Below are positions 36,153-62,256 of a stretch of DNA of 62,256 bases, one piece after another (position 1 is the stretch's first letter; each line of letters begins with the position of its first letter). The notes under the pieces are model-generated. The model did no database searches. It saw nothing but the letters and a program-made list of their open reading frames with translations, and was not told the DNA's origin. Location of the stretch: IMG/VR virus record IMGVR_UViG_3300035701_000029, positions 1-62,256 of that record; one strand, given 5' to 3'. The stretch is from a virus (taxonomy: Duplodnaviria; Caudoviricetes). The translations under genes and the position numbers were made by a program.

Positions 36153-36707
36153 TTAGGTATTATATAGGTCTGTGAAGATTTCTTTAACTTTTCTGCGGAC
36201 TGAAAGAAGAATAAGCTCTACTTCTTTTTTGGATATTTTAAGTTCTTTAGCTACTCTAGATGGCTTAAAGCCACCTTCTCCCTTAAGCATGAAATTGTAA
36301 ACTGCTCTCTCTGAATGAGTTAGAGCGAGTTCAATTCTACTTTCGAACTCTTTAAATTTCTGTTCTGTTGTGGATTTAAGCTTGTCAATTTCACAAGCTA
36401 TGTTTAGGAAGTAGGTATCGCTTGTATAGTGTTGGTTATGGTAGTAGTCTGAACCTATGATAGCTTTTTCAAAAACTTCTTGCTTCAAAACATCAAAACG
36501 TAATTTCCTAGCATGGAGTTGTAGAGTTTGATAAACCCATGTAGAAAGTTTTCCTCTAGATGGGTCATAATGACTCTTGTAGGCCATCCATAGCCGAGTC
36601 CTCAGATTTTGTTGAAAGTCTTGTAGGTCTCGCTTATCCCTACAATACTTATACGCAAATGTCTTTACATGAGGATCAAATTTTTTAATAAACTCATTAT
36701 CATCCAT
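36153..36707 (-). CDS. Phage RNA polymerase sigma factor (sigma70 family, regions 2 and 4)
   Basis: 'DFQQNLRTRLW...YDPSRGKLSTWVY' region 2; 'LTHSERAVY...VAKELKIS' region 4. Directly upstream of the packaging/structural genes. Confidence 0.85.
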   Translation of the reverse strand: MDDNEFIKKFDPHVKTFAYKYCRDKRDLQDFQQNLRTRLWMAYKSHYDPSRGKLSTWVYQTLQLHARKLRFDVLKQEVFEKAIIGSDYYHNQHYTSDTYFLNIACEIDKLKSTTEQKFKEFESRIELALTHSERAVYNFMLKGEGGFKPSRVAKELKISKKEVELILLSVRRKVKEIFTDLYNT

Positions 36708-37807: not shown

Positions 37808-38151
37808 TTCTTCCCTCTCTTTGTTAACTCCCCTATAACTTCTTTCCATCTAAACCACTCTGGTACGGGGTGCGACTCATACTTATTAATCAGCCATTCC
37901 GTCAAATCGAAAGTACCATCATGCAAATTCCTATGATGAGAGAAACATAAGGTAATCAAATTATGGAGGCTATCGTCTCCGCCTAGGCTTTTGTTGATAA
38001 TATGATGAGTGCCTATTTCTTGCGTACTTCCACATATACGGCACATGTATTGATCTAGTTCTTTACTTTTGGTAATATTTTTTGGAGACTTGACCTTCTT
38101 CTTCTTGAAGAAACTTTTTCTGCTGGAATGTGCTTTCCAAAACAATAGCAT
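37801..38151 (-). CDS. HNH endonuclease
   Basis: CRICG...HHIINKSLGGDDSLHNLITLCFSHH. Confidence 0.85.
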   Translation of the reverse strand: MLLFWKAHSSRKSFFKKKKVKSPKNITKSKELDQYMCRICGSTQEIGTHHIINKSLGGDDSLHNLITLCFSHHRNLHDGTFDLTEWLINKYESHPVPEWFRWKEVIGELTKRGKKC

Positions 38152-45258: not shown

Positions 45259-45877
45259 AATCAATCCTCCACTGAATATCATTGACGTTTGTTCTATCTG
45301 TATACGCCAATAAAACAGCATACTTTGCCCCACGAGGAGAGGGATGGTCACCGAAATCTATTTTATAGTAAGGATTTATCTTTTTTAGGTTTTCTATAAT
45401 TGTTTCTAAGCTAATGTCTTGCCAACACTTACCCTTAGCTTTCCATTCCGGGTTAGGAGCAACTCCAGCTTGGTTAATGTCGTCAATAAGAATGCTATGA
45501 GTTTTAATGGGATGGTTTCTAATCGCGGCTAGCTCTTCAATAATAGGAACTTCAACTCTACCCACAGTATACCCAGGTTCCCAGTGACCATCTAGCCAAA
45601 AAGTAATAGGTTTTTCAATTTTCTCAATTATCGACCATAAAACATCTGCACTATCCCCTAAATGCAAATGGACATTCTTATTTTCTTTATACCTCTCTTT
45701 AGCCATATCATAAAAATAAGAGTCTATTTCTATACTATGTATTTCCTTAAAGCCGCACTGCAAAGCCGTTAGTATCCCCTGCCCCTTAAAAGTGCCGGTT
45801 TCGATAAAGACATCATTACGGAATTGTAATAACAAATCCCATCTTAATGTGGTGTTTTCAAAAAATAAACTGGACAT
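45242..45877 (-). CDS. SAM-dependent methyltransferase-like protein
   Basis: 'FIETGTFKGQG', 'SIEID', 'GDSADVL', 'FWLDGH', 'ILIDD'. Confidence 0.75.
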   Translation of the reverse strand: MSSLFFENTTLRWDLLLQFRNDVFIETGTFKGQGILTALQCGFKEIHSIEIDSYFYDMAKERYKENKNVHLHLGDSADVLWSIIEKIEKPITFWLDGHWEPGYTVGRVEVPIIEELAAIRNHPIKTHSILIDDINQAGVAPNPEWKAKGKCWQDISLETIIENLKKINPYYKIDFGDHPSPRGAKYAVLLAYTDRTNVNDIQWRIDFEAIY

Positions 45878-46905
45878 TAAGAAGCCCCTTTCATTTTTAA
45901 GCACTCTTGGAATAAGGCTTCATATTGTTTACTAACAGCCTCTGGACTGTACAAGGCTTTAACCTTGTTTATTGCACCACGAGAAAAAATCTCGTATTCT
46001 TTTGGGTTGTTTATTAGAAAATGAACGGCACTTGCCAAATGAAACAATTCTTTTCTACAAATAATCCCTGCCCCTTGCGCTGCTTCTGGTCCAGCGCTAT
46101 CTTGCCATGTTATTATGGGAATACCTTGAGACATGGCTTCTACAATACAATATTCAAATCCCGCTTCCCATGTTGGGTTAATGCATATATCGAGTCTGTT
46201 AAGCGCGGCAAGTTTATCTTTTTGTTCTCCCTCTACAACAAAATAATTTGGTATTTCAACCTTTTTCATCTCTTCATAATATTGTCGGTTAAATTCATGC
46301 CCCATTAGTAAAAACTTAAGAAAATGCCGATATTCTGCCATAATTTTGGCTACCCCATATATAACATGGTGGAGCTTATCAATTTCATACCTAGCAAGCC
46401 TTCCTACAACAATCTGTCTGTGTTCTTCACTAGGGAATTGCCTTGGCTCTGCTATCGGCAATGTGCATATATTAGGGATAACTAAAACCTTCCTATCCTT
46501 ACTCTTGCTAGCGGTGTATTCACTTTGCCCAACCGTAAAAGCACACATATCTTTGGGAATATGAGAAGGTCTCGGGCAATGAAGATTTTCTATGACGGGA
46601 ATCTTTTTGACATAGGCTTCCGTTACCCAATTGGGATTATCTCCACCCCCCGTCTGCTTCACAATTATGTCGATTTTATGATAATTCAGAAGCGCGCTAA
46701 AACCTGGATAATTTTCATTCTCGGCTATAATGCTGTCGCAACCAGCAGCTTCAAATTCTTTTTTAATGTCGGTATCTAACCAACAGTACCCAATAGCATA
46801 ATGCTTATACTGTGGAGTAGTAGCCTTAACTAGTTCTAGGGTGGCTTGAGCTATGCCTCCAAGAGCCCACCCATTAATGACATGTAATATCCTTGGCCTA
46901 AACAA
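45877..46905 (-). CDS. Glycosyltransferase (GT4-like)
   Basis: 'ILHVINGWALGGI', 'VGRLAR', 'EAGFEYCIVEAMSQGIPII'. Likely TTG start at 46905. Confidence 0.9.
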   Translation of the reverse strand: MFRPRILHVINGWALGGIAQATLELVKATTPQYKHYAIGYCWLDTDIKKEFEAAGCDSIIAENENYPGFSALLNYHKIDIIVKQTGGGDNPNWVTEAYVKKIPVIENLHCPRPSHIPKDMCAFTVGQSEYTASKSKDRKVLVIPNICTLPIAEPRQFPSEEHRQIVVGRLARYEIDKLHHVIYGVAKIMAEYRHFLKFLLMGHEFNRQYYEEMKKVEIPNYFVVEGEQKDKLAALNRLDICINPTWEAGFEYCIVEAMSQGIPIITWQDSAGPEAAQGAGIICRKELFHLASAVHFLINNPKEYEIFSRGAINKVKALYSPEAVSKQYEALFQECLKMKGAS

Positions 46906-47917
46906 TGTTTTCCCTCCGTAAGAACTCATACAGTTCAAGCGCCCATCTTTCATTGCTCCTATACTTAGCACAAAAGTCCCGAGAACCTTCAGTATATATA
47001 TTAATAAATTGCGGCAATTCGAATATCATTTCAATCTTGCGGCTGAGATCATATACATTAAAAGGTTCTGCATATATGCCAAAATCTCCATATATGCGTC
47101 TAGCTTCTGGCCAATCTGCTGCTATGACCGGTTTTCCAATTGATATCCCCTCAAGACCACATTGAGATACAATCCTAGGGTTATCGGGGAAAGTAATAAT
47201 TGCAGAAGACTCATGGTAGTGCTTATATTTATCCATTTCTGAACAATTTGGTATTTGTTCGTAGGGGACCTTAAGAAATGAAGCAAGCGAACTCAAATCT
47301 GGTCCAACTCCCAAAACTAGAAGCTTAATTGAGGTGTCGGCCATTGAAATGGCCTCTAAGATCATATGCACCCCTTTATCTGGACGAACTATCCCCGAAT
47401 AACAAAGCTGTTTCTTAATTTGGAAATCTCTTGGGTTAAGATTGAGTGTGTTAACAGGGTGAAACAACGGACATGTAGGAATTGACAACCCCTGAAGCTC
47501 GTCTATATCAATTTTCTTCCATGAAGTCAAGAAATCTAAATAAGATAGTACTCCCCCATATTGCGACCACATTTTTTGAATATGTGGTAAGTAGTTTCTT
47601 GTTTTAGGGATAAAAGTATGGGAAGGTAAATCTAAGATGTTGCATCCAACTTTTTTTCCAGTGTGATCTTTGAGATGCAACAAAAGCGGAATTGCAGAAA
47701 TATCAAATCCAAAGAAAATATCATATTTTGAGATATCGGCTGTATCCGATGTTATAATATTCACTTTCGGTAGATCAATCTCAAACGGTATAGTTGGATT
47801 CCCCTCAAATAGGTAGGCTACATCTATGTCGAAGTATTCTTCTAGAGCCTTTGCTACTGGATAGACCTGCCCTGGAAAAGCAGCAAAAAACAAGCACATT
47901 TTTAACCGTTCGGCCAT
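46898..47917 (-). CDS. Glycosyltransferase (GT4-like)
   Basis: 'YSGIVRPDKGVH', 'GLEGISIGKPVIAAD'. Confidence 0.85.
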   Translation of the reverse strand: MAERLKMCLFFAAFPGQVYPVAKALEEYFDIDVAYLFEGNPTIPFEIDLPKVNIITSDTADISKYDIFFGFDISAIPLLLHLKDHTGKKVGCNILDLPSHTFIPKTRNYLPHIQKMWSQYGGVLSYLDFLTSWKKIDIDELQGLSIPTCPLFHPVNTLNLNPRDFQIKKQLCYSGIVRPDKGVHMILEAISMADTSIKLLVLGVGPDLSSLASFLKVPYEQIPNCSEMDKYKHYHESSAIITFPDNPRIVSQCGLEGISIGKPVIAADWPEARRIYGDFGIYAEPFNVYDLSRKIEMIFELPQFINIYTEGSRDFCAKYRSNERWALELYEFLRRENIV

Positions 47918-48984
47918 ATGATCTTCCTTAGTGATTGAACAAAAACTTGTTTGCTGTACCTGCTATTAAGAAACTCTTTCATTTCAACTATGTCTGTTTC
48001 AAATGTAAGAGCCTTCTTCATTTGGGCAGTAAATTCTTCGGGAGTCCTAGCAAACAGTATGTGTTTGTCTAGGTACATCTCTCTGTTAAGCGGATTATCC
48101 CATACTACTGAAGTCTTTCCACACCACATGCACTCAGCTATAGTTCCAGAGCCACAATATGACCCTCTTTCGCCAGAAATACCAAATTTAGCCCCAGCGA
48201 TAAAGTTATACTTCTCTGTTTCGGTTATCTCTGACAAGATTCTTAAAGTGATGCCATGTTTAGCTGCTAGATTCTTGCATTTTACTTCATCTGGGCCACT
48301 ACCTACAAAATATAGGTCTAGTTCATCTTTAAGGTCTTTGAACATCTCGATAATTTCAGCTTGGCCCTTATGTTCATTAATACTGGCACACGAAATAGCG
48401 TAGTCCCTAGCCCCCTTATATGGTTTTGTGGGTTCTTCAAAAAATACTGGGTAGAAGACTTTACCGACTGGCATCTTATTAAGGTAAAAATAACTATTGT
48501 AATAGGTAGGTGTCTTAACTGCTATAAGATCCCAGTTCCCCCTACTTAGCTCTCGTTTGATCGTATCCCAGCTAGCTATATAATCGGAATAGTAATGATG
48601 CTTGCCACTATAGTAGTCCATAGGGATATCTAACAACATTACGTACTTCCTAATATTATCTATCTTAGATGCTATGGCTCTATACACATTTTCAGCAGAA
48701 GTTAAAACTGTGTGGTCTGTCGCCAACAAAACAACGTCTTTACCCTTACATCTTTCTATAAGATCCGGACTAACTACTAAATTACCGCTCTGTGAATCTA
48801 TCCTATTAAAAATGATTTCATCAGAAAGGCTTTCTGATGTTTTTAATTTCCGAAAAGAAAGCCTCGCTGGGAAAAGACAAATAGGGACAGTTTCAATGTC
48901 CATTTGTTTTTTAATTTCTTCTGATACAAGAAGGACAAAGTGTTCGGTTATTTTTGTAACCAAGATAATTACTTTATTGGGCAT
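47902..48984 (-). CDS. Glycosyltransferase (GT4-like)
   Basis: 'EHKGQ', 'VGSGP', 'IAECMWCGK'. Confidence 0.8.
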   Translation of the reverse strand: MPNKVIILVTKITEHFVLLVSEEIKKQMDIETVPICLFPARLSFRKLKTSESLSDEIIFNRIDSQSGNLVVSPDLIERCKGKDVVLLATDHTVLTSAENVYRAIASKIDNIRKYVMLLDIPMDYYSGKHHYYSDYIASWDTIKRELSRGNWDLIAVKTPTYYNSYFYLNKMPVGKVFYPVFFEEPTKPYKGARDYAISCASINEHKGQAEIIEMFKDLKDELDLYFVGSGPDEVKCKNLAAKHGITLRILSEITETEKYNFIAGAKFGISGERGSYCGSGTIAECMWCGKTSVVWDNPLNREMYLDKHILFARTPEEFTAQMKKALTFETDIVEMKEFLNSRYSKQVFVQSLRKIIWPNG

Positions 48985-50059
48985 CGTTGACTACCTTGCA
49001 AATTAAGTTAATATGCTCTTTTGTTAGAGAAATTGAAGATGGTAAACAAATGGTACGTTGGAATAAAGATATTGCATTTCCTTGACCAACTGTTTGTAGA
49101 TGTTTAGTAAACGGCAAGCTACTCATCGGTTTAAAAATGTACCTATAATCAATAAGATTGAGATCAAGTGCCCTCATAGCATCATCTCTTTTGTGCTTAT
49201 TAGGAAAAGTAAATGCATTTAACCAAAAATTAGGCTTTGCTCCAAGGACATGGGCCTGTGGATATGCTGGCGGGTTGATCCCTATCTCGTAAGACTTTCT
49301 GATTGTTGTTTTGTACTGTAGGAAGAATTCAATCTTTTTCAACTGTGAACGCCCCAGCGCTGCGGACATATGAGTCATTCTGTAGTTATACCCAGCTTTT
49401 GCATGATCGTATTCTTTACCACCTGGATAATGACTGACTAAATTGTACGCCTCTTCGTACTGCCAATCTGGGACAACTAAAGCTCCGCCTTCACCCGTAG
49501 TAATGATCTTATTAGCGAAAAAACTGAAAACCCCGTAGTCTCCCCTTGTCCCACAAAATCTTCCTCTAGCATCTTTGCTTCCAAGAGACTCGGCTGCATC
49601 TTCAATGACCACAATGTTCTTAGATTTGACATACTGTTCGAAATTGTCCGAAAATTCAAATGGTGTGCCAAGCAAATCCACAGTAATAATATGAGAAATA
49701 TCTTTGTCTTTGAGATATTGCCAATTCATATTCCAATCAGAACTAGTAATATCACAAAGAACAATCTTGTTTGTTTCTTGGAACAAAGCATTAAGAGTTG
49801 CAGCAAAAGTTATATCTGGAATTGCAACATATTCGGCGTTTCTAACTCCCGACAGAACATAGGCGATATGAAGAGCGGCACTACCGCTCGAAGTTAAAAC
49901 AATTCGTTTGTTAAGCTGCGCAAGACCTAAATAGTCTTCCAGATCGTGAGCAAATCGTACATACTCTGGCCCATGATGCGAAACCCATCCCATTTTCAAC
50001 CCATCGGACACTGCTTTAACATCTTGTTCTGTAATACAGGGCTCTAGTACTTTAATCAT
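48974..50059 (-). CDS. DegT/DnrJ/EryC1/StrS PLP-dependent sugar aminotransferase (perosamine synthase-like)
   Basis: 'SSGSAALH', 'IEDAAESLG', 'SFFANKIITTGEGG', 'GYNYRM', 'CLPSS'. Confidence 0.95.
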   Translation of the reverse strand: MIKVLEPCITEQDVKAVSDGLKMGWVSHHGPEYVRFAHDLEDYLGLAQLNKRIVLTSSGSAALHIAYVLSGVRNAEYVAIPDITFAATLNALFQETNKIVLCDITSSDWNMNWQYLKDKDISHIITVDLLGTPFEFSDNFEQYVKSKNIVVIEDAAESLGSKDARGRFCGTRGDYGVFSFFANKIITTGEGGALVVPDWQYEEAYNLVSHYPGGKEYDHAKAGYNYRMTHMSAALGRSQLKKIEFFLQYKTTIRKSYEIGINPPAYPQAHVLGAKPNFWLNAFTFPNKHKRDDAMRALDLNLIDYRYIFKPMSSLPFTKHLQTVGQGNAISLFQRTICLPSSISLTKEHINLICKVVNDAQ

Positions 50060-51132
50060 ACATACTCCTCAAAAATTTTAGTGAGTCTTTCGCCACTTGC
50101 CCTGGGGGAGAAATAATCGTCTACTCTTTTGTGCGCCCTGCGCCTTAAAGAAAAAAGATCAACCTCTCTATTAAGAACTTGAAGTATTTTAGCCTGTAGG
50201 TCTTCTACATCTTTAGGTTTTGCGTATATGGCACAATCCTCGTATTCTTCTCTATTGATAGGATAATCAAACACAACTGCCGGAACTCCCAAGGCCATAG
50301 CTTCTAGGGGAGCAATGGCTCCCATCCATGGGTTACATTGTGGGTAGCAAAGTAGCCTAGAGTTTTTAACAATTTCATGTTTCTTAAGTTCTGGCGCTTT
50401 GGGGAAATATTCAAATCGTTTGCCCAAATAAGATTTTGCTAAAGCTACTTGTTCCGCTTCCTGAGATCCACCAACTGCTACTGCTTTATAGCCAATATCA
50501 ATTCCATATAGGGCTTCTATTAAGTATCGACCCCCCTTAAATTCTTCAAACCTATGAGAAGAAGAGACATATGGCTCAACATCAACCATCTCCGAATTAT
50601 TTATTTTGTAAATCATGTCTAAAGTAGCAACTACGAAGAAAGACTTCTTAGCTGGCTTCTGAGTTCTCTTAGTATATTCTTCGGCAGCAACCGAACTAAT
50701 AAAAATCAAACTATCTAACTCTTCTCCAATTTTTAAATACCTATAAAACCTGTTAGAATAGTCTTGATTGTAGTTTGGTTGGCCTGGATCAATAACATGA
50801 ACTGGAAAATCTAAGAAAATACAAAATGCTGGAACTCCATAAAATTTTTTAAGTGACGCAACATATGGCACAACAGATTGATCTATTCCAATGATAACAT
50901 CTGGTTTTTCTATAGACTCGGGAATAGTAGTATAGACCCCATGAGGAACTTTTATAATGTCTTCGCTAATTAAGGGAGCTGGTATCCACCCGTTACAAAA
51001 AATTCCATGATCTATATCGTGAAGAATCTTCACTTCATGGCCCACTTCTTTTAACCCAGAAGCAATTGCTAATTCCTGATGGCCAACAAATAAAGTGCCG
51101 TTAGCTATGCACAGAACTTTCATTACACACAT
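50056..51132 (-). CDS. Glycosyltransferase (GT4-like), paralogue of 51101..52183
   Basis: 'LEAMALGVPAVVFD'; shares 'HQEL.IA.GLK..G.EV' and 'G.DQSV' with its neighbour. Confidence 0.85.
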   Translation of the reverse strand: MCVMKVLCIANGTLFVGHQELAIASGLKEVGHEVKILHDIDHGIFCNGWIPAPLISEDIIKVPHGVYTTIPESIEKPDVIIGIDQSVVPYVASLKKFYGVPAFCIFLDFPVHVIDPGQPNYNQDYSNRFYRYLKIGEELDSLIFISSVAAEEYTKRTQKPAKKSFFVVATLDMIYKINNSEMVDVEPYVSSSHRFEEFKGGRYLIEALYGIDIGYKAVAVGGSQEAEQVALAKSYLGKRFEYFPKAPELKKHEIVKNSRLLCYPQCNPWMGAIAPLEAMALGVPAVVFDYPINREEYEDCAIYAKPKDVEDLQAKILQVLNREVDLFSLRRRAHKRVDDYFSPRASGERLTKIFEEYV

Positions 51133-52183
51133 GCTCCAAAATTTGAGTTAGCGCTTTTCCTGCTTGTTCTGGTGTAAACATCAATTGAACCCGTTCTTTG
51201 CCCCTAGCCTTTAGGGTTTCGAGATCAATTTCTTTGTTTAACACCAATAAAAGCTTTTCTTGTAAGTCGTCTATATTTTTAGGGGCTGTATATACAACAG
51301 AGTCACCAAAAAACTCTTTGTACAAAGGGAAGTCAGAGCAAACTACAGGAGTCCCCATATACAAGGCCTCAAGAACAGCCATCCCCCCTGACCATCCACA
51401 TAAATTGGGGTAGCAAAGAACTTTCGCACTTTTCAATAATCTCCACTTATTAGCTTCTGCAAGTTTTGGATATGGGTGGAATTTATCCGCAAGCATTCTT
51501 TGAGCAAACGCTATAACTTGGGGCTCAATAAACCCCCCTGCAAAAGCAGCGCAATAGTCTACCATCATTTCACTAAGAGCTTTAATAAGGTACTCTGTTC
51601 CATTGTAGCTAAAGAATTTATGAGTAGAAGCTATATAGGGAACGTCAATATCGAATTTTTTACCATCAATTGCATTTGTTGTGCAAAGAGGGTAGTAAAA
51701 ATAGTATGGGGGCTTGCGCAAGTTATTAGCAGCCCTAAGCGCCATGGTTTTACTGGTGAAAATTATACCTCCACTCATTTCGTTTGCGTAATTAATGGCG
51801 GTGTAGTAGTTAGCTGAATATTCTGGATCATAGTCCTGCGGAGACCCCTCATCAATCATATGACGTGGATAATCAAGCATAATGCAACTAGCAGGGCAAT
51901 GATACTCGCTCTCATATGCCCTAGTCAAAGCAGACACACTCTGGTCTAGCCCCAAACAGCAATCTACCCCCTTAATCCCCTTCTCAACTTCGAAATCTCC
52001 CGGCTTTTTAATTATGATCTCTTTAGATAAGAGAGGAGGGGGGATGTATCCCTTGTTAAATTCGCTACATTGTGGGTCATGAAGAATAACCACTTCGTTT
52101 CCAGCTTGCTTAAGCCCCGCTGCTATATGCAACTCTTGATGGGCCATTGATAAAAACCCATTACCAATTAATAGTACCTTCAT
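51101..52183 (-). CDS. Glycosyltransferase (GT4-like), paralogue of 50056..51132
   Basis: 'VLEALYMGTPVVCSD'. Confidence 0.85.
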   Translation of the reverse strand: MKVLLIGNGFLSMAHQELHIAAGLKQAGNEVVILHDPQCSEFNKGYIPPPLLSKEIIIKKPGDFEVEKGIKGVDCCLGLDQSVSALTRAYESEYHCPASCIMLDYPRHMIDEGSPQDYDPEYSANYYTAINYANEMSGGIIFTSKTMALRAANNLRKPPYYFYYPLCTTNAIDGKKFDIDVPYIASTHKFFSYNGTEYLIKALSEMMVDYCAAFAGGFIEPQVIAFAQRMLADKFHPYPKLAEANKWRLLKSAKVLCYPNLCGWSGGMAVLEALYMGTPVVCSDFPLYKEFFGDSVVYTAPKNIDDLQEKLLLVLNKEIDLETLKARGKERVQLMFTPEQAGKALTQILEHVCNESSVHS

Positions 52184-52404
52184 TTATCCACCCAAACAAT
52201 TCCCGAAAAGAACAACCATTCTATGTCTGATCTTTTAAGCTTTACCTTGCGGTTATCGGCGAAGTATAGAAAACATTCTAGGCAGAGTTTTTTTTCAACT
52301 AGGCTGGCCGGAACAGACATGGCCCAAATAATATCGTTGATCTTATAGCTTGCTCTCCTGATTTTCTTGCAATAGCTACAGCGTTTTTCCATATTCTCAT
52401 CCAC
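52180..52404 (-). CDS. Small Cys-rich (Zn-binding) protein
   Basis: CSYC...LCLEC. Confidence 0.6.
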   Translation of the reverse strand: MDENMEKRCSYCKKIRRASYKINDIIWAMSVPASLVEKKLCLECFLYFADNRKVKLKRSDIEWLFFSGIVWVDK

Positions 52405-53363
52405 TAGGTTAGCTCCATGTGTTTAAAAATCTTTTCAAAGCTATGCTTAAAGGTAAAAGAAGATAAGACCGTGTTCATTCCCCTATCTGCAATCTTTTTC
52501 CTAAGATCCGGTTTGTCTCGGTAAAACTCTATTTTATCGGCACACTCTTCGTTAGAACTATATAGAATGATATTCCTTCCGTCTTGAAAGAAATCTGTAT
52601 GGCCCTTAATTCTGTTGGTTATTAAGAACCCACCAGCAGCCATAATTCTATAGTCCCTAGCGCTCCAAGAGTATTTAATATTTGGCCATCCGCTATGTCC
52701 AAGGTTTATAATGGAATTAGCAGAGACTACGTTGTTGCCCCAATTGCCAGTAATGCTTTCTCCAACGTGTCGGCCTTTCAGATCAACTGTCCCATAGATT
52801 TTTCCATAAATTTTAATAAGATCATCAAACTTTTCAACCAAGTACTTTAGCCAATCTGCCCTATCTAGGTGAACAAACCCTCTTTGTTTATACCATTGAG
52901 AATCTTCTACTATTTGGCCAACAAAAGTACACCCATAGTAGTTATTAGTCTTAATTGGATAGTGAGACCACGGATCGCAGCCTTCTGGAACCCAGTAACC
53001 TTTAGGAAAAGCCTTGGCGTGATCTGGGGAGATGGTGAAAAAGTAGTCTAGCTTATCTAACCCTGGGCGTAGAGAACTTACTGGAACTTCTACGCCGCCA
53101 AATGTAACATCGAAGATCCAACCGCATTTTATGGGGCACTCTATCCAATCAATGAAGTGTTCTAACTCATTAAGATATAGAATAAGACAAACATCTGGCT
53201 TTATTGTATTGATAAAATCTACGGTTCGCTCAATTGAATGATTCCGATGATCGGAGAATGAAAAATCTATTTCTAGGGCGTGTTCTCTGGCAAATTCATG
53301 TAGTCCGTTACGTAAAAAAATGTTAGACTGCCCATCATTGGGCATAGACAAATGAACTTTCAT
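52404..53363 (-). CDS. CgeB-like glycosyltransferase (GT-B)
   Basis: 'TFVG', 'WSARDYRIMAAGGFLIT', 'RKKIADRG' pattern of CgeB / glycosyl transferase group 1-like proteins. Confidence 0.8.
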   Translation of the reverse strand: MKVHLSMPNDGQSNIFLRNGLHEFAREHALEIDFSFSDHRNHSIERTVDFINTIKPDVCLILYLNELEHFIDWIECPIKCGWIFDVTFGGVEVPVSSLRPGLDKLDYFFTISPDHAKAFPKGYWVPEGCDPWSHYPIKTNNYYGCTFVGQIVEDSQWYKQRGFVHLDRADWLKYLVEKFDDLIKIYGKIYGTVDLKGRHVGESITGNWGNNVVSANSIINLGHSGWPNIKYSWSARDYRIMAAGGFLITNRIKGHTDFFQDGRNIILYSSNEECADKIEFYRDKPDLRKKIADRGMNTVLSSFTFKHSFEKIFKHMELT

Positions 53364-55530: not shown

Positions 55531-55809
55531 TCACTGGTTAAAGTACTCCATAACGTCTCCGGACCTATGTATAAGAACTTGGCCTCCTGACGGAAAGTTC
55601 CCTGATCTAATATATATCTGTATCAACTCTTGCTCATACAGAAGTTTGAAGCGTTCAAGCTCTGACTGTGTGATAAAGATTTGTCTGCGATTGTTGTACT
55701 TGACTGCAAGTTCAGCAATAAACGACAGCACAGACAGCTTAACTTTGATGTTTGTAAACTTGGCTAGTTCCTCGGTAGTAGCATGAGCGAGTTTTCTAAA
55801 CCCCTTCAA
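55531..55809 (-). CDS. Hypothetical protein
   Basis: 92 aa with GGAG SD. Confidence 0.55.
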   Translation of the reverse strand: MKGFRKLAHATTEELAKFTNIKVKLSVLSFIAELAVKYNNRRQIFITQSELERFKLLYEQELIQIYIRSGNFPSGGQVLIHRSGDVMEYFNQ

Positions 55810-57319: not shown

Positions 57320-58231
57320 TTACCATTCCATCACTACGCTTGCAGAAGTCCATCCGGCCCCAACACCAGTAAGTAAGATTTTATCCCCTTCTACAATTCT
57401 CTGTTTGTCAAGAGCATCATTAAGGGCTATTGGAATACAAGCAGAACTTGTATTGGCATACCTATCCATAACAGTGTGAATTTTTTCAAACGGAATGCCC
57501 AAAGCTTTCGCGGCGTCTTTAAGCACTCCAATCCCAGGTTGATGAGGAATGACTAAATCAATATCATCTGCGGTCAAGTTTGCTCTTCTTAGACATTCAG
57601 TAGCACTCGCATAGATATGTTCCACTGCGAGTTGATAAACCCACTTCCCCTTCATGTGCCAAAAGTTATCTTTTTCGATAGTCCAAGCTTCGGCTCCGCT
57701 CCCATCTGATGCCCAATGTGTTGCTAGAATACCTCTACCATTAGATAAGACAACTGCTCCTGCTCCATCACCGAAGAAAACGCAGTTCCTATCTCCCCAA
57801 TCGGTATATTTAGATAGTGTATCTGCTCCGACCACTAAAATATTCCTATACCGTTTGCTCTCCATCATCTCACAAGAAGCGACTAGGGCATAGATAAAAC
57901 TAGCACACACCGCAGTCATATCAAACGCTGGTGGTCCGTTAAGCCCCAATGCGTCTTGAATGTAACAAGCTGTTGCAGGAGCACGTTTATCTGGGGTTGT
58001 CGTTCCAACAATAATTAAATCAATTTCGGTAGCCTTTGCTTCTATGATCGCTTTTGCCGCTGCGTTAAGAGCAAGGCTTCGAGTAGTTTCTTCCACACAA
58101 ATATGACGAGACTTGATGTTTAAAGTCTTCGCCGCCCAAGGAGGGTCAACATAGTGACCCAATTCTTTCAATTGCTCGTTAGAAACACTCCAAGCGGGGA
58201 CACACATCCCAACTCCCATGATTTTAGGCAT
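57320..58231 (-). CDS. fabH: Beta-ketoacyl-ACP synthase III (FabH family)
   Basis: Catalytic triad motifs 'AVCASF', 'IPHQ', 'ANTSSACIP'; also 'FGDGAGAVV' and 'GVGAGWT'. Confidence 0.93.
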   Translation of the reverse strand: MPKIMGVGMCVPAWSVSNEQLKELGHYVDPPWAAKTLNIKSRHICVEETTRSLALNAAAKAIIEAKATEIDLIIVGTTTPDKRAPATACYIQDALGLNGPPAFDMTAVCASFIYALVASCEMMESKRYRNILVVGADTLSKYTDWGDRNCVFFGDGAGAVVLSNGRGILATHWASDGSGAEAWTIEKDNFWHMKGKWVYQLAVEHIYASATECLRRANLTADDIDLVIPHQPGIGVLKDAAKALGIPFEKIHTVMDRYANTSSACIPIALNDALDKQRIVEGDKILLTGVGAGWTSASVVMEW

Positions 58232-59398: not shown

Positions 59399-59760
59399 GC
59401 TCTGTTAGAGCTTATTACATTATACGGCAAGGAGGAGCATTTTGTAAGATTTCCGTGCATGAATCACCTAGACGTTACCTTTTCTAGCTCCTGGGAAAAA
59501 TTTACCCAAGTAGGGTTAAATCCTAGACCCGAAATTGGGGATGACTAAGACACTCTCTACTGACTCGTTCGCTAACTCATTGTCTAGCAATAACGTAGTA
59601 TCTATTGTTCTAGAAATCTGTTGAGAGAAGCTGAGCTTTTCGCTCTGCTGAAGCTGAAAGTAGCTGTGAGCTTTACGAATACTCTATACTGCACATATGA
59701 GCAGATTGAAAGTAGTTTCTCAAGCAATACTGCACATTTGAACAGTATGCGAAAAAGCTG

Positions 59761-59789
59761 TTGACTCATGTGCTTCTGTTGTCGATAAT
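59761..59789 (+). promoter_or_regulatory. Sigma70-type promoter inside the GG/CC-free island
   Basis: TTGACT-17 nt-GATAAT, ~85 nt upstream of the ATG at 59874. Confidence 0.7.
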
Positions 59790-59873
59790 GAGAGCAGAAG
59801 CAGAGAAGAGCAAGACGATAATGCACTCACTCATCTTGCTCACAATTCGAGAGTGCAGAGAAGAGCAAAGCAA

Positions 59874-60428
59874 ATGTCAAAGAAGCAAGCTGTAGAAGAG
59901 AAGCAAGTCGAACGCAAGAGCGTTTCGACGAAAGAGAATGCAGACGTTAGCAGATTAACTGCTTTCGTCGATTCTCTGAGCAGTGTCAAGTCTGCTGCTG
60001 CTGCTGTTGAGCAGTGCAGCAGTGAGCAAGAGATGTATCTGCTTGCTCTCGCAATAGTGCGAGAGAAATTGAGTGAGCGTTTTACATTCACTCAATTCGC
60101 TTCTGCTGTTAACGAAAGCGAAAAATGCAAAAAGCTTTCACTCACTGCTTATCTGTACAAGCAGAGAAAAGCAGCGAACGTGCTTTCGCTTCGTGAAAGC
60201 ACTCACTCTATCTGTGCAGACAGAGTCTTGCACAGAGAGAGAGTCGCACAGATTCACAAGTCTGCAAAGACTAGTAACAGCTTTTCAACAGTGCATGTCG
60301 CTTCTGCTTTGCTTGACAGAGCAAAGCACGAAACAGACAATCAAGCAAGAGCAAGAGAAGTGTTTCACTCACTCAACAGTAATGCGATTAGCTTGCTTGA
60401 ATCTATCGTCAAGATAGTGAGCAAGTAA
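59874..60428 (+). CDS. Early protein lacking Gly, Pro and Trp (184 aa); probable paralogue of 61866..62256
   Basis: ATG at 59874 (MSKKQAVEEK...), promoter upstream, terminator downstream, colinear motif matches to the 61866 ORF. Confidence 0.8.
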   Translation: MSKKQAVEEKQVERKSVSTKENADVSRLTAFVDSLSSVKSAAAAVEQCSSEQEMYLLALAIVREKLSERFTFTQFASAVNESEKCKKLSLTAYLYKQRKAANVLSLRESTHSICADRVLHRERVAQIHKSAKTSNSFSTVHVASALLDRAKHETDNQARAREVFHSLNSNAISLLESIVKIVSK

Positions 60429-60436
60429 TTCAACAG

Positions 60437-60469
60437 AGAGAGAGCAGCAGAAATGTTGCTCTCTCTTTT
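60437..60469 (+). terminator. Intrinsic terminator built without GG/CC
   Basis: agagagagcagca-GAAA-tgttgctctctct followed by TTT. Confidence 0.8.
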
Positions 60470-60498
60470 CTAATCACTCAATTGAAAGAGAGAAGCAA

Positions 60499-60699
60499 AT
60501 GACAGACAGAGAAGCGACAATTGAAGCTCTTGACAGAGCAATCAACAGAAATGACAGAGAAGCAGTGTATCAGCTTGTGCAATTGCTCAACAGACAGACA
60601 GAGCAAGAGCTAAGAGAGAAAGACAGATTCACGAATATCATACTCTTTGCTTGTGCTTGCGAATTAGCTGCTTGTCTGCTGCTTGTGCTATTCGCATAA
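60499..60699 (+). CDS. Small protein with C-terminal membrane anchor, lacking Gly/Pro/Trp (66 aa)
   Basis: Purine-rich GAAAGAGAG RBS; C-terminal hydrophobic segment; followed by hairpin agcactc-GAAA-gagtgct (60703-60720). Confidence 0.65.
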   Translation: MTDREATIEALDRAINRNDREAVYQLVQLLNRQTEQELREKDRFTNIILFACACELAACLLLVLFA

Positions 60700-61033
60700 G
60701 AGAGCACTCGAAAGAGTGCTTGAGTAGAAAGCCTGAACCTGACCTTAATGTGATGACTGTACATCGACAGCCACATCCAGACCAGAACAAGCTTACGAAT
60801 ACTCATGCCTTACCGCTCTTATAAAGAAGTCTCCTGATCCATCATCTTATAGTCTTGTTACTCTTGTCTGGCTATGTCTTATTACGAATACCTATTAAGC
60901 TTGGGGTTTTGTTCTGGTGTGCTAATCTGAGCCTGAGCCCATAGAGTAAGAATGCATTGTATAGAGAGTACTGTGTGTTGGTAGTTTCGCCGAAACCGCT
61001 GTTAAACAATAACCTGTAGTGTTCGGAGGTAGT

Positions 61034-61312
61034 ATGTTGGAAATGGCAATCTGTGCGGATTGTGGTAGATCATGTCGTCTTGATATGATGACCACTCGTC
61101 TTTCACCACTCACTGATGACCCTACTAATGAAGCCTTAGCAGTCAGGCAGTTTGTGTGCGACTCCTGTGCTGACTGGTTTCATCACTTCGGCAACAGTAA
61201 GAGGGGTGAGTGTCACAAGTGTGGAGATAGTATGTGGAAGAAGCATGCGGTTCATGTAGCGGACGATGCATGGGGCTCGTTCGTATGCGGTCTGTGTAAG
61301 GAGGTAGTATGA
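61034..61312 (+). CDS. Cys-rich Zn-finger protein
   Basis: GGAGGT SD then ATG at 61034; four CxxC pairs. Confidence 0.7.
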   Translation: MLEMAICADCGRSCRLDMMTTRLSPLTDDPTNEALAVRQFVCDSCADWFHHFGNSKRGECHKCGDSMWKKHAVHVADDAWGSFVCGLCKEVV

Positions 61313-61467
61313 CGTGCGACAAATGCGGTGGGCCTCTAGATGAACAGAGCCACACGTTCATCGAGGACAATGTGCTCTACACCTCAGAAGTCAATATATG
61401 CCGGAAGTGTATCGACGGCATAGATCGGCTTATCAAATCAATCTTCAGCCAACAGAAAGGAGGTTAA
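61309..61467 (+). CDS. Small Zn-finger protein (52 aa; not in ORF track)
   Basis: AAGGAGGT SD, ATGA overlap; MTCDKCGG...ICRKCIDG... Confidence 0.65.
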   Translation: MTCDKCGGPLDEQSHTFIEDNVLYTSEVNICRKCIDGIDRLIKSIFSQQKGG

Positions 61468-61468
61468 T

Positions 61469-61555
61469 ATGGGGCGTCAATCGTGGTTATACATACTGTT
61501 GATCTGGTTGAACTTAGCGGCTAAGTATATCGCGCTTCGTGACCTAATCCAGTGA
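61469..61555 (+). CDS. Small hydrophobic peptide (28 aa; not in ORF track)
   Basis: AAAGGAGGT SD; MGRQSWLYILLIWLNLAAKYIALRDLIQ. Confidence 0.5.
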   Translation: MGRQSWLYILLIWLNLAAKYIALRDLIQ

Positions 61556-61772
61556 CACGGGCTCGTTACGCCTGAGCCTGACCACAACCTTTCCACAAGG
61601 GGGCAGCCATATCTAGTCCTGGACCGCTAGATCAACTGCCCTTCATTATAGTAGAGTAGTCTCTAGTCACCAGATTACGAATACGCCGCATTAAGGGAGG
61701 TTTGATACGATCTGGATCTAATTCCGGAACCACATTAAGAAGAAAGGAGGTTAACGCCACACAAAAAACCAC

Positions 61773-61802
61773 TTGACAAAGTTAAAGGACATGAGCTATC
61801 TT
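61773..61802 (+). promoter_or_regulatory. Sigma70-type promoter
   Basis: TTGACA-18 nt-TATCTT with an upstream A-tract. Confidence 0.7.
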
Positions 61803-61865
61803 GTACTCATGTTCGAGGAACAAAACGTCAACGCTGCTAAGGCAGCACACAAAAGGAGCTTTACA

Positions 61866-62256
61866 ATGTCTAACAAGAAGAACACCACCGAGAACGCGGT
61901 TGTCAAGACTGCGAAGGCTGAGAAGATCGAGAAGAAGCCTGTTGTCGTGGCCCCCGAAGCGAAAGCGGACATGGCTCAGTTGAAAGCAGTGTGTGAGGCC
62001 ATCGTGTCACGCGACAAGGGTGCTCGTCTCTCGGAGTCGGAGATGCTCGTCGCATCAGCGGCGATGAATCTCGACAGGTGGGGAACGAACGTCACGAAGG
62101 AGCAGATGCTCAAGGACGTGAACGAACGATGTGCTTTCGGTGCGTACTACTACAGGGACGCGGCGGAAGACAGAAAGGGCACGTTCAATCTCTATCGTGG
62201 CGTGCATCGGGACGTGTGTGCACATGACGGGAGCAAACTGGGACGTGGCACAAACG
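61866..62256 (+). CDS. Early protein (runs off window; not in ORF track); probable paralogue of 59874..60428
   Basis: AAAGGAG SD, ATG at 61866; MSNKKNTTENAVVK...ADMAQLKAVCEAI...SESEML...VNERC...AYYYR...HRDVCA; open to the window end. Confidence 0.8.
   Translation, partial: MSNKKNTTENAVVKTAKAEKIEKKPVVVAPEAKADMAQLKAVCEAIVSRDKGARLSESEMLVASAAMNLDRWGTNVTKEQMLKDVNERCAFGAYYYRDAAEDRKGTFNLYRGVHRDVCAHDGSKLGRGTN

What the first reader, a model, noticed from the sequence alone, without database searches (positions are those of the whole stretch)
59540..60732. A 1.19-kb functional island with no GG or CC dinucleotide at the strand switch
Seen: no GG or CC from 59540 to 60732, although the segment is roughly 40-45% GC (my rough estimate gives about 100 expected) and flanking DNA has many G/C runs. 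A and T runs are retained. The island still holds a TTGACT-17-GATAAT promoter, two ORFs (184 and 66 aa) with no Gly, Pro or Trp (the residues whose codons need GG/CC), GG-free ribosome-binding sites (GAGAAGAG, GAAAGAGAG; elsewhere GGAGG) and two GAAA-loop hairpins. It begins where the long minus-strand gene run ends. Inference: strong selection on the DNA itself. (a) It may be the first-injected or first-transcribed DNA, kept free of a GG/CC-targeted base modification so host RNA polymerase can read it. (b) It may be purged of defence motifs: NGG (SpCas9-type) and CC (type I-F) PAMs, GGCC/CCGG/CCWGG restriction sites, CCA/GGCC phosphorothioate sites.
Basis: partly seen in the sequence, partly recalled or inferred. 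Interest (0 to 1): 0.95.

Follow-up and report, generated by a model that had tools for sequence, protein, structure and literature searches.

The report
Phage operon with no GG/CC
A 1.2-kb two-gene operon in a large sediment phage contains not one GG or CC dinucleotide on either strand, and natural selection keeps it that way, most likely so that this early-acting DNA cannot be seen by a host defence that reads GG/CC.

Summary
Window 59540-60732 (1193 nt, 43% GC) has 0 GG/CC where about 112 are expected. The next longest such tract in the window is 161 nt, and 80 other phage loci (0.9 Mb) reach at most 218 nt. The borders are sharp: 21 GG/CC in the 175 nt to the left, 14 in the 175 nt to the right.

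The island is one unit: a sigma-70-like promoter, a 184-aa and a 66-aa gene without Gly, Pro or Trp, an intrinsic terminator and a second hairpin. Contigs from other sediment samples bridge both borders.

Selection is ongoing. None of 45 substitution sites seen in two strain variants creates GG/CC, although about 25% of random changes would. In the right flank, 9 of 48 substitutions change a GG/CC. Homologues of the 184-aa protein at 70% and 41% identity also lack Gly, Pro and Trp.

The constraint covers non-coding DNA and both strands, so it acts on the DNA. My best reading (0.4) is a stealth early or leading cassette purged of a GG/CC-type defence motif, such as a CRISPR PAM, by analogy with the T5 pre-early and T7-like leading regions. 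First-injection status, the host and the protein functions remain untested. A GG/CC-directed self-modification gets no support.

The parts
59540..60732 (.). GG/CC-free island, 1193 nt, 43.2% GC
59673..59682 (+). One copy of the 10-nt motif TTACGAATAC, which is shared with the GG/CC-containing intergenic regions downstream
   Evidence: 4 exact copies in the window, all on the + strand within 59673-61684; 6 copies in the 4165-nt L082, 0.10 expected.
59686..59745 (+). Two 19-nt direct repeats (59686-59704 and 59727-59745, 89% alike, 41 nt apart) just upstream of the -35 hexamer; operator-like
   Evidence: family D13
59761..59789 (+). Sigma-70-like promoter TTGACT-17-GATAAT (10 of 12 matches)
   Evidence: Such matches are near chance level window-wide (22 at 10 of 12 or better).
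59874..60428 (+). ORF1, 184 aa, basic, predicted all-helical, 0 Gly/Pro/Trp; its N-terminal third varies between strains
   Evidence: No ORF this long in 1000 dinucleotide shuffles (largest 166 aa).
60435..60474 (+). 15-bp stem, GAAA loop, then UUUUCU: an intrinsic-terminator-like hairpin after ORF1
   Evidence: -23.9 kcal/mol, z -4.99
60499..60699 (+). ORF2, 66 aa, acidic helical N-terminal part and hydrophobic C-terminal tail, 0 Gly/Pro/Trp
   Evidence: The allele that is 86% identical (P0009) is also free of Gly/Pro/Trp.
60702..60721 (+). 8-bp stem, GAAA loop hairpin; the island ends 11 nt after it
   Evidence: -12.3 kcal/mol, z -3.68
60733..60870 (+). Right flank that contains CC but still no GG on the + strand (C-rich, G-poor)
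   Evidence: the GG-free tract is 59540-60870 and the CC-free tract is 59530-60732.

Best explanation
The island is a self-contained promoter-to-terminator cassette of a large sediment phage. It sits at the divergent switch between the long minus-strand gene run and a cluster of small plus-strand genes.

Shown: the cassette is under absolute, ongoing purifying selection against the dinucleotide GG on either DNA strand. The selection is strong enough that its two proteins do without Gly, Pro and Trp and its ribosome-binding sites do without GG.

Inferred: the cassette is the part of the genome that is exposed and must be expressed before the rest of the genome is protected, or before it has even entered the cell. 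This would make it a leading or pre-early module. It is kept invisible to a DNA-targeting host defence whose recognition element is GG/CC. The most economical candidate is a CRISPR-Cas PAM: CC for type I-F and some I-A/I-B systems, NGG for type II-A (PAM identities are recalled, not from a call). With no PAM, no spacer can be acquired from this segment and none can act on it. Its products, of unknown function, would then neutralise defence or allow the remaining DNA to enter or act. That would explain why the rest of the genome needs no GG/CC depletion.
For: 1. The constraint acts at DNA level. The purge covers 334 nt of non-coding leader, the 70-nt spacer, both ORFs and both strands, and no other dinucleotide is affected.

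2. The borders are sharp and lie in non-coding DNA: 21 and 14 GG/CC in the adjoining 175 nt.

3. Selection is ongoing. L082 differs at 11 island sites and the X4 strain variant at 37 listed sites plus 6 indels. That is 45 distinct sites, and none creates GG/CC. About 24.9% of random substitutions and 30-35% of synonymous ones would create one. The chance of 0 in 45 is 2.5e-6. In the right flank, 9 of 48 substitutions add or remove a GG/CC; Fisher p = 0.0027.

4. The genes are real and old. The rebuilt X4 ORF2 translates exactly to the independent protein record P0009, with 28 nt changes and 9 aa changes. ORF1 homologues P0002 (70% identity, 187 aa) and P0003 (41%, 205 aa) have 0 Gly/Pro/Trp. 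The median Gly+Pro+Trp share of the window's 49 ORFs of 150 aa or more is 12.3%, and the lowest apart from ORF1 is 4.0%.

5. The phage already uses motif avoidance. AGATCT is 0 observed against 21.9 expected, TGATCA 0/16.4, CAGCTG 0/13.3, GAGCTC 0/12.5, AACGTT 0/10.5, ATCGAT 0/10.3 and CTGCAG 1/13.3. GG and CC themselves are not depleted outside the island (1.13x and 1.15x). This is expected if only the island is exposed to the GG/CC reader.

6. Precedent in print. In T5, only spacers against the first-injected pre-early region interfere; early and late targets do not, although the same protospacers work on plasmids (PMC5389539, passages read). Murciavirus phages escape a type I RM system when the motif is absent from the leading region, even though it is present elsewhere (PMC12455610, abstract). 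BF23 and its relatives resist RM if the sites lie outside the terminal repeats (PMC10644984, abstract). [quoted passage not shown]

7. The border asymmetry is in the direction a PAM predicts. The GG-free zone runs 138 nt further right and the CC-free zone 10 nt further left. The consequence is that no protospacer with a flank PAM reaches into the island from the right (inference).

8. Variation within the island is mosaic and high next to identical flanks, as in arms-race genes (X4 records 1 and 2 have 0 differences; record 3 has 43, clustered at 60443-60746).
Against: No evidence places the island at a genome end or shows that it enters or is transcribed first. The contig is a fragment (33% complete). 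Only assembled contigs could be laid, and these cannot show ends. Contig depth across the island in X4 is flat (7.27, 6.43, 7.43, 7.23), so the island is not inside a long T5-type terminal repeat. The terminase and portal genes lie 24 kb away.

The host and its CRISPR type are unknown. The only hint is that the terminase's nearest cultured relatives are phages of Bacillus, Clostridium and Staphylococcus, at about 31% identity.

ORF1 and ORF2 match no Pfam, PHROG, NCBIfam or PDB entry, so an anti-defence role is pure inference.

The promoter match is no better than 21 others in the window.

The DNA of the two distant ORF1 homologues could not be obtained, so for them only the protein-level signature is known.

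Up to 5 of the 43 differences of the X4 variant contig were not listed by the tool and could not be checked.

On the left, a CC at 59529-59530 would still allow a protospacer reaching about 23 nt into the island.
Confidence: 0.4

Rival explanations
1. Mobile 'moron' with public-target avoidance. The cassette (own promoter, genes, terminator) moves between phages by recombination. Because many phages share it, host spacers against it would give broad immunity, so the cassette itself is selected to carry no PAM. No special entry order is needed.
For: It has the promoter-to-terminator architecture and a composition distinct from its flanks. Both borders are sharp and lie in non-coding DNA. Alleles are exchanged in a mosaic fashion inside the island while the flanks stay identical. 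The Gly/Pro/Trp-free trait holds across the whole protein family.
Against: The ORF1 family is rare. Only 2 proteins in 1.84 billion representatives reach E <= 0.001, and none was found in IMG/VR or in 185,579 genomes. It is therefore hardly a widely shared target. The island also shares the local TTACGAATAC motif with its neighbours, so it is integrated into this phage's regulation. One extra targetable gene among thousands of PAMs gives only weak selection, which is hard to square with an absolute purge.
Confidence: 0.15
2. Self-immunity by motif absence. An early phage product, possibly encoded in the island, attacks DNA at GG/CC, for example a frequent-cutting nuclease or nickase used to destroy host DNA. 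The DNA present in the cell at that time survives because it has no site.
For: This explains an absolute, local, double-strand, two-base constraint. T5 pre-early products destroy host DNA while most of the phage DNA is still outside the cell (PMC5389539 passages; 10.1101/866236 abstract). ORF1 is basic and carries an invariant stretch, ICADRVL-x-RE...HK, in all three homologues.
Against: No nuclease family or fold is recognisable in ORF1 or ORF2. The rest of the phage genome is full of GG/CC, so it would need delayed entry or another form of protection. No such enzyme is known in phages of bacteria; the chlorovirus CCD nickase is the nearest example, and that is recalled, not from a call.
Confidence: 0.1
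3. Modification-free early region. The phage modifies G or C in the GG/CC context. The island escapes modification so that the unmodified host RNA polymerase or other host factors can use it at once.
For: It would explain both the symmetry and the locality. The window encodes many sugar-handling enzymes, 6-7 GT1 glycosyltransferases and a DegT aminotransferase, although nothing ties them to DNA.
Against: GG/CC-containing 6-bp palindromes are avoided at least as strongly as those without (0.65 against 0.82 observed/expected; GGGCCC 0 observed against 7.6 expected). They do not look protected by a modification. The strong genome-wide site avoidance suggests largely unmodified DNA. No methyltransferase, DpdA or hydroxymethylase was recognised, but only 33% of the genome is in view. 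The plus-strand genes downstream have normal GG/CC content yet share the same 10-nt regulatory motif.
Confidence: 0.1
4. RNA-level constraint. The transcript or transcripts of the island must lack GG and CC, for example to escape a GG-specific endoribonuclease or an RNA-binding repressor, or to avoid Shine-Dalgarno-like and anti-Shine-Dalgarno-like sequences.
For: The right border falls 11 nt after the last hairpin, so it coincides with a likely transcript end. GG absence on the + strand continues for another 138 nt.
Against: About 220-255 nt of the island lie upstream of the only recognisable promoter. GG and CC are equally absent, which an RNA reader would not require unless both strands are transcribed. 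No known RNA family is present.
Confidence: 0.07
5. Mutational erosion. A CC-specific cytosine deaminase, from the host or the phage, acts repeatedly on this exposed segment and converts CC to CT and GG to AG. The motif is lost by mutation pressure rather than by selection.
For: AG (147 observed, 89.6 expected) and CT (98 observed, 58.3 expected) are among the three most enriched dinucleotides. The proteins are rich in Ser and Leu and lack Gly and Pro.
Against: The island's GC content (43.2%) is higher than that of the rest of the window (about 40.5%), and GC is the most enriched dinucleotide (100 observed, 55.3 expected). Erosion predicts neither. A count of zero in every strain would need an enormous mutation rate confined within borders sharp to the base. 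The variant spectrum is ordinary.
Confidence: 0.05
6. Artefact, chance, or a by-product of two proteins that happen to lack Gly, Pro and Trp.
For: None beyond the fact that the proteins are helical.
Against: The Poisson probability of 0 when 112 are expected is about 1e-49. Independent contigs from other samples carry the island. The non-coding parts are purged too. Codon junctions are purged (0 of 13 substitutions in unchanged codons of ORF2 create one, although 35% could).
Confidence: 0.01

Closest known systems
Pre-early (first-step-transfer) region of T5-like phages (T5, BF23)
   Same: It is a short leading segment with its own promoters and small genes of host-takeover or anti-defence type. 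It is the only part of the genome on which CRISPR (PMC5389539) and RM systems (PMC10644984) can act, so it is the only part that has to be free of targets.
   Different: The T5 segment is about 10 kb and lies inside a long terminal repeat. It has an injection-stop region with DnaA boxes (10.1101/866236). No total absence of a dinucleotide is reported for it. Here the island is 1.2 kb, contig depth shows no doubling, there is no homology to T5 genes, and entry order is unknown.
Leading region of Autographiviridae (T7-like Murciavirus), where absence of a type I RM motif decides escape (PMC12455610)
   Same: Selection on motif content is local, confined to the early-entering region, while the motif remains elsewhere in the genome. 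The region is variable between strains and is said to encode anti-defence genes.
   Different: There the motif is a specific bipartite type I site lost by a few mutations. Here a two-base element is purged completely, and protein composition is reshaped as a result.
Genome-wide PAM depletion in phages (PMC4246573; PMC12174588 for type I-F in Pseudomonas phages)
   Same: The same presumed selective agent, a CRISPR PAM, and the same dinucleotide class.
   Different: The published cases are modest statistical depletions over whole genomes. Here the rest of the genome is not depleted (GG 1.13x, CC 1.15x), while one 1.2-kb unit is depleted absolutely.
Phage morons (independent promoter-gene-terminator units with deviant composition); concept recalled, no paper read here
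   Same: Own promoter, own terminator, located between phage gene blocks, composition unlike the flanks.
   Different: Morons deviate in GC content. None is known to lack a dinucleotide.
Restriction-site (palindrome) avoidance in phage genomes
   Same: Counter-selection of short DNA words. It is also seen in the rest of this phage.
   Different: That avoidance concerns 4-6-bp palindromes genome-wide. GG/CC is not a palindrome, and the purge is local. Only 14 of 64 palindromic hexamers contain GG/CC, so the purge is an inefficient way to remove restriction sites.

Membership tests
T5-type pre-early / first-step-transfer region | Lies at the genome end that enters the cell first | not testable with these tools
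   The contig is a 33%-complete fragment. Only assembled contigs were laid, and these show no molecule ends (table 6: none).
T5-type pre-early / first-step-transfer region | Contained in a long direct terminal repeat (double read depth) | tested here: not met
   X4 contig depths across the left flank, the island and the right flank are 7.27, 6.43, 7.43 and 7.23. Contig-mean depth is a weak measure.
T5-type pre-early / first-step-transfer region | Homologues of A1, A2, dmp or other T5 pre-early genes | tested here: not met
   No PHROG, Pfam or NCBIfam hit for ORF1 or ORF2.
T5-type pre-early / first-step-transfer region | Free of the host defence's recognition elements while the rest of the genome is not | tested here: met
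   0 GG/CC in the island against 93.9 per kb elsewhere. The relevant defence itself is not identified.
Anti-CRISPR (acr) operon | Sequence or structural homology to a known Acr | tested here: not met
   Profile and sequence searches of PDB chains gave nothing meaningful. The AF2 model was too poor for a fold search (pLDDT 48).
Anti-CRISPR (acr) operon | Adjacent aca gene (helix-turn-helix repressor) | tested here: not met
   No HTH family was found in ORF2 or in the next plus-strand ORFs tested, 61019-61312 and 61773-62255. The same two ORFs, 61309-61467 and the 209-aa L082 ORF also gave nothing in NCBIfam. The next ORFs are zinc-ribbon-like by eye.
Anti-CRISPR (acr) operon | Inhibits a Cas effector | not testable with these tools
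   This needs an experiment.
Moron | Own promoter and own terminator flanking one or a few genes between phage gene blocks, with deviant composition | tested here: met
   Promoter-like site, terminator-like hairpin with a U run, unique dinucleotide content. Promoter activity is not shown.
Genome-wide PAM depletion | The motif is under-represented across the whole phage genome | tested here: not met
   GG is at 1.13x and CC at 1.15x expectation outside the island.
Base-modification-free early region | The phage DNA carries a GG/CC-context modification | not testable with these tools
   No chemistry or raw signal data were available. The indirect test (palindrome avoidance by class) gives no support.

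The most novel reading that the evidence does not exclude
The island is a PAM-null 'stealth leader'. This phage escapes all GG/CC-PAM CRISPR systems, for both acquisition and interference, by exposing at first only a 1.2-kb segment from which the PAM has been erased down to the last dinucleotide. Its proteins evolved without Gly, Pro and Trp to allow this. The segment's products then disarm the defence or let in the rest of the genome. If so, an absolute short-motif void could be used to read, from sequence alone, both the leading end of an uncultured phage and the PAM or recognition element of its unknown host's defence.
Probability: 0.25. Interest if true: 0.9.

Novelty: new variant of a known kind. 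Interest (0 to 1): 0.85.

Why it matters
A working operon that has lost one of the ten strand-symmetric dinucleotide classes, and with it three amino acids and the core of its Shine-Dalgarno sites, shows how strong selection on raw DNA words can be in a phage.

If the stealth-leader reading holds, it extends the T5 and T7 principle that only the first-exposed DNA must be free of targets, from specific restriction sites to CRISPR PAMs. It would also give a sequence-only way to find leading regions, early anti-defence genes and host PAMs in metagenomic phages.

The two Gly/Pro/Trp-free proteins are natural examples of folding with a 17-letter amino-acid alphabet. They are also candidates for new anti-defence or host-takeover functions.

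Tried and rejected
Relatives.
- Searches for ORF1-family DNA found none in IMG/VR. These used the single proteins, the alignment A3, and a degenerate back-translation of the invariant peptide.
- None was found in 185,579 genomes.
- The metagenome scan gave only the 99%-identical contig L082.
- No relatives were found with the terminase, the downstream 209-aa ORF or the DegT-like gene in genomes.
- BLAST of the island and of 20 kb of the window against 50,697 phage records found no match.
- The 80 loci around distant VWA-protein homologues (30-55% identity) have no island, but they are probably not syntenic.
- Bacillus phage Basilisk, which shares about 30% terminase identity, has no island. 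Its longest tract is 235 nt at 34% GC.

Function.
- AF2 on a 3-sequence alignment gave pLDDT 48, so no fold search was run.
- The ESM Atlas gave only unnamed viral clusters.
- PDB sequence searches gave chance-level hits.
- Rfam found nothing. No tRNA genes were found.

Expression. No RNA holder was listed among the 12 runs, so there is no information on expression.

Termini. All four laid runs are contigs, so molecule ends cannot be seen. Contigs of three runs (X4, X6, X7) stop at 59679. I read this as a strain branch point in the assembly graph, not as a terminus.

Short spurious pieces belong to other organisms and were not counted. One example is X8 record 26: only 37 nt of a 659-nt contig fit, its loose ends are unlike the window and contain GG/CC, and it has an inserted G at 59894 that would make a GG. 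The X6 loose ends at 59991 and 60027, on the CTG-repeat stretch, are another.

Two strongly diverged pieces of the ORF1 N-terminal region could not be checked for GG/CC, because their letters were not all listed. These are X6 record 12 (17 differences and 4 gaps in 125 nt) and X8 record 27 (17 differences and 4 gaps in 174 nt).

Other ideas rejected.
- A GATGACT repeat at both borders as a target-site duplication: the right copy is not conserved in L082.
- An additional purge of GATC, GCGC and CGCG (0 observed for 4.8, 5.6 and 2.1 expected): L082 has one GCGC, so that part is not absolute.
- The CACTCA enrichment was not explained.

Paper supplements were not consulted. Supplementary Table S1 of PMC5389539 may bear on the T5 statement.

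Modell et al. 2017 is not held and is cited only through the review PMC6546361.

Literature searches for a local dinucleotide-free phage region found only genome-wide PAM depletion and leading-region RM papers. I saw no report of a GG/CC-free gene cassette in those listings.
Full report
WHAT IS THERE

The window is a 62,256-nt IMG/VR viral contig. It is classed as linear and estimated 33% complete, so it is a fragment of a large tailed phage.
- From position 2 to 59364 almost every long ORF lies on the minus strand. These include the terminase large subunit, portal, ribonucleotide reductase and a clamp-like protein.
- The same run holds a sigma-70 region-2 protein and a block of 6-7 GT1 glycosyltransferases with a DegT aminotransferase.
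- It also holds a FabH-like enzyme and a VWA-domain protein.
- By homology, the VWA gene starts at the ATG at 59364, which is preceded by GAGAGGAGA.
- From 59874 rightwards there are small plus-strand genes.
- The terminase's closest cultured relatives are phages of Bacillus, Clostridium and Staphylococcus at about 31% identity. The host is otherwise unknown: there is no tRNA and no close host-like gene.

- Positions 59540-60732 (1193 nt; A386 T292 G277 C238; 43.2% GC) contain no GG and no CC. Base composition predicts 64 GG and 48 CC. The rest of the window has 93.9 GG+CC per kb, slightly more than expected (1.13x and 1.15x).
- The next longest tract is 161 nt. Sliding 1193-nt windows outside the island never hold fewer than 71.
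- The largest tract is 218 nt in 80 other phage loci totalling 908,363 nt, and 143 nt among the 44 of these with at least 40% GC.
- No other dinucleotide or complementary pair shows anything similar.
- The borders are abrupt and lie in non-coding DNA: 21 GG/CC in the 175 nt to the left and 14 in the 175 nt to the right.
- The island's GC content is kept up by an excess of GC, AG, CT, GA, CA and TG.

IT IS A FUNCTIONAL UNIT

- There is a 334-nt leader. It holds one TTACGAATAC motif, two 19-nt direct repeats, and a TTGACT-17-GATAAT site.
- ORF1 (184 aa) is followed by a 15-bp GAAA-loop hairpin with a U run (-23.9 kcal/mol).
- ORF2 (66 aa) is followed by an 8-bp GAAA-loop hairpin (-12.3 kcal/mol). 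The island ends 11 nt after it.
- Both start codons are preceded by GA-only purine tracts ending in AAGCAAATG.
- An ORF of 184 codons was not reached in 1000 dinucleotide-preserving shuffles (largest 166).
- Neither protein contains Gly, Pro or Trp. Among the window's 49 ORFs of 150 aa or more, the median share of these residues is 12.3% and the lowest apart from ORF1 is 4.0%.

IT IS NOT AN ARTEFACT

- A separate metagenome contig, L082 (4165 nt, 99% identical), starts inside the island. It is GG/CC-free over all 1092 nt that overlap the island and continues into normal sequence.
- Twelve sediment-metagenome runs hold the stretch or parts of it; one may be the source sample.
- I laid 4 of the 12. 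X4, X6 and X7 have contigs across the left border with 0 differences. X4 has a contig across the right border.

SELECTION IS ONGOING AND OLD

- L082 differs from the window at 11 island positions.
- The X4 strain carries a contig (59962-61099) with 43 differing letters and 6 gaps. Of these, 37 substitutions and 6 indels inside the island were listed. Applying them leaves 0 GG/CC.
- As a check, the rebuilt ORF2 translates exactly to the independent protein record P0009, which is 86% identical to the window's ORF2.
- Together the two variants give 45 distinct substitution sites, and none creates GG/CC. About 24.9% of random substitutions and 30-35% of synonymous ones would do so. The chance of none in 45 is 2.5e-6.
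- In the flank 60733-62256, 9 of 48 substitutions between L082 and the window add or remove a GG/CC. Fisher p = 0.0027.
- The caveat is that up to 5 of the X4 contig's differences were not listed.
- An exhaustive profile search of 1.84 billion representatives found only two proteins at E <= 0.001, P0001 (the protein's own cluster) and P0003.
- With the word-index search, the family consists of near-identical copies, P0002 (70% identity, 187 aa) and P0003 (41%, 205 aa).
- Both have 0 Gly, Pro and Trp. None of their Met residues is followed by a residue whose codons start with G.
- At the phage's median composition, the chance of 205 residues without Gly/Pro/Trp is 2e-12.
- Their DNA could not be obtained, so for them the evidence is at protein level only.

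WHERE THE CONSTRAINT ACTS

- It acts on DNA, or at least on both strands. It covers non-coding and coding parts alike, including about 220 nt upstream of the only recognisable promoter. GG and CC are equally absent.
- The ORFs pay for it in amino acids and in ribosome-binding strength.
- A mutational origin (CC-specific deamination) would explain the AG and CT excess. It would not explain the raised GC content, the GC-dinucleotide excess, or a count of zero held within borders sharp to the base.

WHICH READER OF GG/CC?

The window gives two indirect clues.

First, the rest of the phage strongly avoids many 6-bp palindromes. AGATCT is 0 observed against 21.9 expected, TGATCA 0/16.4, CAGCTG 0/13.3, GAGCTC 0/12.5, AACGTT 0/10.5, ATCGAT 0/10.3 and CTGCAG 1/13.3. 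The phage therefore lives by motif avoidance, and its DNA is probably not broadly modified.

Second, palindromes that contain GG/CC are avoided at least as much (observed/expected 0.65) as those that do not (0.82). This gives no support to a protective GG/CC-directed modification.
- A general restriction-site purge is also a poor fit, because only 14 of 64 palindromic hexamers contain GG/CC.
- GATC, GCGC and CGCG are absent from the window's island, but L082 has a GCGC.
- A two-base recognition element points to CRISPR PAMs: CC for type I-F and some I-A/I-B systems, NGG for many type II-A systems. These identities are recalled knowledge, not from a call.
- The small asymmetry of the borders is in the direction PAM geometry predicts. 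The GG-free zone extends 138 nt further right and the CC-free zone 10 nt further left. This is weak evidence, because the right flank is simply C-rich and G-poor.

WHY LOCAL?

Published work supplies the logic.
- In T5, only spacers against the first-injected pre-early region interfere with infection. Spacers against early or late genes do nothing, although the same targets are cleaved on plasmids (PMC5389539; passages read).
- T5-like BF23 resists type I, II and III RM systems if the sites lie outside the terminal repeats (PMC10644984; abstract).
- Murciavirus phages escape a type I RM system when the motif is missing from the leading region, although it is present elsewhere (PMC12455610; abstract).
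- Genome-wide PAM depletion is known, but it is only statistical (PMC4246573, search listing only; PMC12174588, search listing and passages).

A segment that alone is exposed before the phage's counter-measures act must by itself be untargetable, while the rest need not be. This matches the contrast seen here: an absolute void in the island against no depletion elsewhere. The island's architecture resembles the T7 and T5 leading ends, with a non-coding leader carrying a promoter, first small genes and a hairpin boundary. The T7 layout is recalled, not from a call. The high, mosaic strain variation inside the island beside identical flanks fits arms-race genes.

WHAT IS NOT SHOWN

- Nothing shows that the island enters or is expressed first.
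- Contig depth is flat across it, so it is not in a long terminal repeat.
- The terminase genes are 24 kb away.
- The promoter match is one of 22 equally good matches in the window.
- ORF1 and ORF2 have no recognisable family or fold.

I therefore give the stealth-leader reading 0.4. The rivals and their weights are listed under Rival explanations: a mobile PAM-free moron, self-immunity to a GG/CC-directed phage nuclease, a modification-free region, an RNA-level constraint and deaminase erosion.

NOVELTY

The principle of local motif avoidance in first-exposed DNA is known. A complete dinucleotide void in a working operon is not in any listing I retrieved. Nor is such a void conserved over a protein family down to 41% identity and reshaping the amino-acid alphabet. 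I class the finding as a new variant of a known kind, with high interest.

CLOSED OR UNAVAILABLE TOOLS

Paper supplements were not available.

Noticed in passing
window 59673, 60793, 60882, 61675 (+ strand); L082 33, 1153, 1242, 2067, 2866 (+) and 3264 (-): The 10-mer TTACGAATAC occurs 4 times exactly in the window, all within 2 kb and on the + strand, and nowhere else in the other 60 kb. In the 4165-nt L082 it occurs 6 times (0.10 expected). Only the 10-nt core is conserved, and each copy sits in an intergenic stretch upstream of a small gene. It is probably the site of a phage regulator or an unusual promoter element of this gene cluster.
   Followed up: partly
whole window outside 59540-60732: There is strong genome-wide avoidance of 6-bp palindromes: AGATCT 0 observed/21.9 expected, TGATCA 0/16.4, CAGCTG 0/13.3, GAGCTC 0/12.5, AACGTT 0/10.5, ATCGAT 0/10.3, CTGCAG 1/13.3, CTCGAG 0/7.2, GGGCCC 0/7.6. 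This is a fingerprint of the unknown host's restriction systems.
   Followed up: partly
window 45877-53363 (-), 57320-58231 (-): A run of six or seven GT1-family glycosyltransferases with a DegT/DnrJ/EryC1 aminotransferase, and nearby a FabH-like ketoacyl synthase III. This is a sugar or lipid-modifying block that is unusual for a phage. Its target (virion, host surface or DNA) is unknown.
   Followed up: no
window 36153-36707 (-) and 36707-37849 (-): A 184-aa protein with only sigma-70 region 2 lies next to a clamp-like 'processivity factor' gene. This recalls the T4 gp55/gp45 late-transcription pair (recalled, not from a call).
   Followed up: no
window 59889-60073 and 60443-60746: Strain variation is mosaic. 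In run X4 the flanks and most of ORF1 are identical to the window, but the terminator and ORF2 segment differs by about 10%. In X6 and X8 the N-terminal third of ORF1 differs by 10-14% with indels. These are hypervariable patches inside an otherwise 99% identical region.
   Followed up: partly
window 59824-60480 (+): CACTCA occurs 8 times in the island. That is 8 of the 10 + strand copies in the whole window, mostly as TTCACTCA(A/C)T and in different reading frames. It is unexplained.
   Followed up: no
window 60733-60870 (+): Directly after the island comes a C-rich stretch with many CC but no GG for 138 nt. It could be a Rho-utilisation-like region or part of the same constraint.
   Followed up: no
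window 55601-55762: This is the second-longest GG/CC-free tract (161 nt), inside a 92-aa minus-strand ORF. It is probably just a locally AT-rich helical coding stretch.
   Followed up: no
window 29638-30744 (-): A 368-aa protein with an HNH_3 domain and a weak match to a PHROG annotated as DNA methyltransferase, located downstream of the portal gene. It may be a packaging-associated HNH nuclease.
   Followed up: partly
L083/L084 (Bacillus phage Basilisk KC595511.2): This phage is among the cultured relatives of the terminase (about 30% identity). Its physical ends (218-bp terminal repeats) lie at a divergent strand switch, between minus-strand genes at the right end and small plus-strand genes at the left end. 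The layout is the same as around the island, but Basilisk has no GG/CC-free island (longest tract 235 nt at 34% GC).
   Followed up: partly
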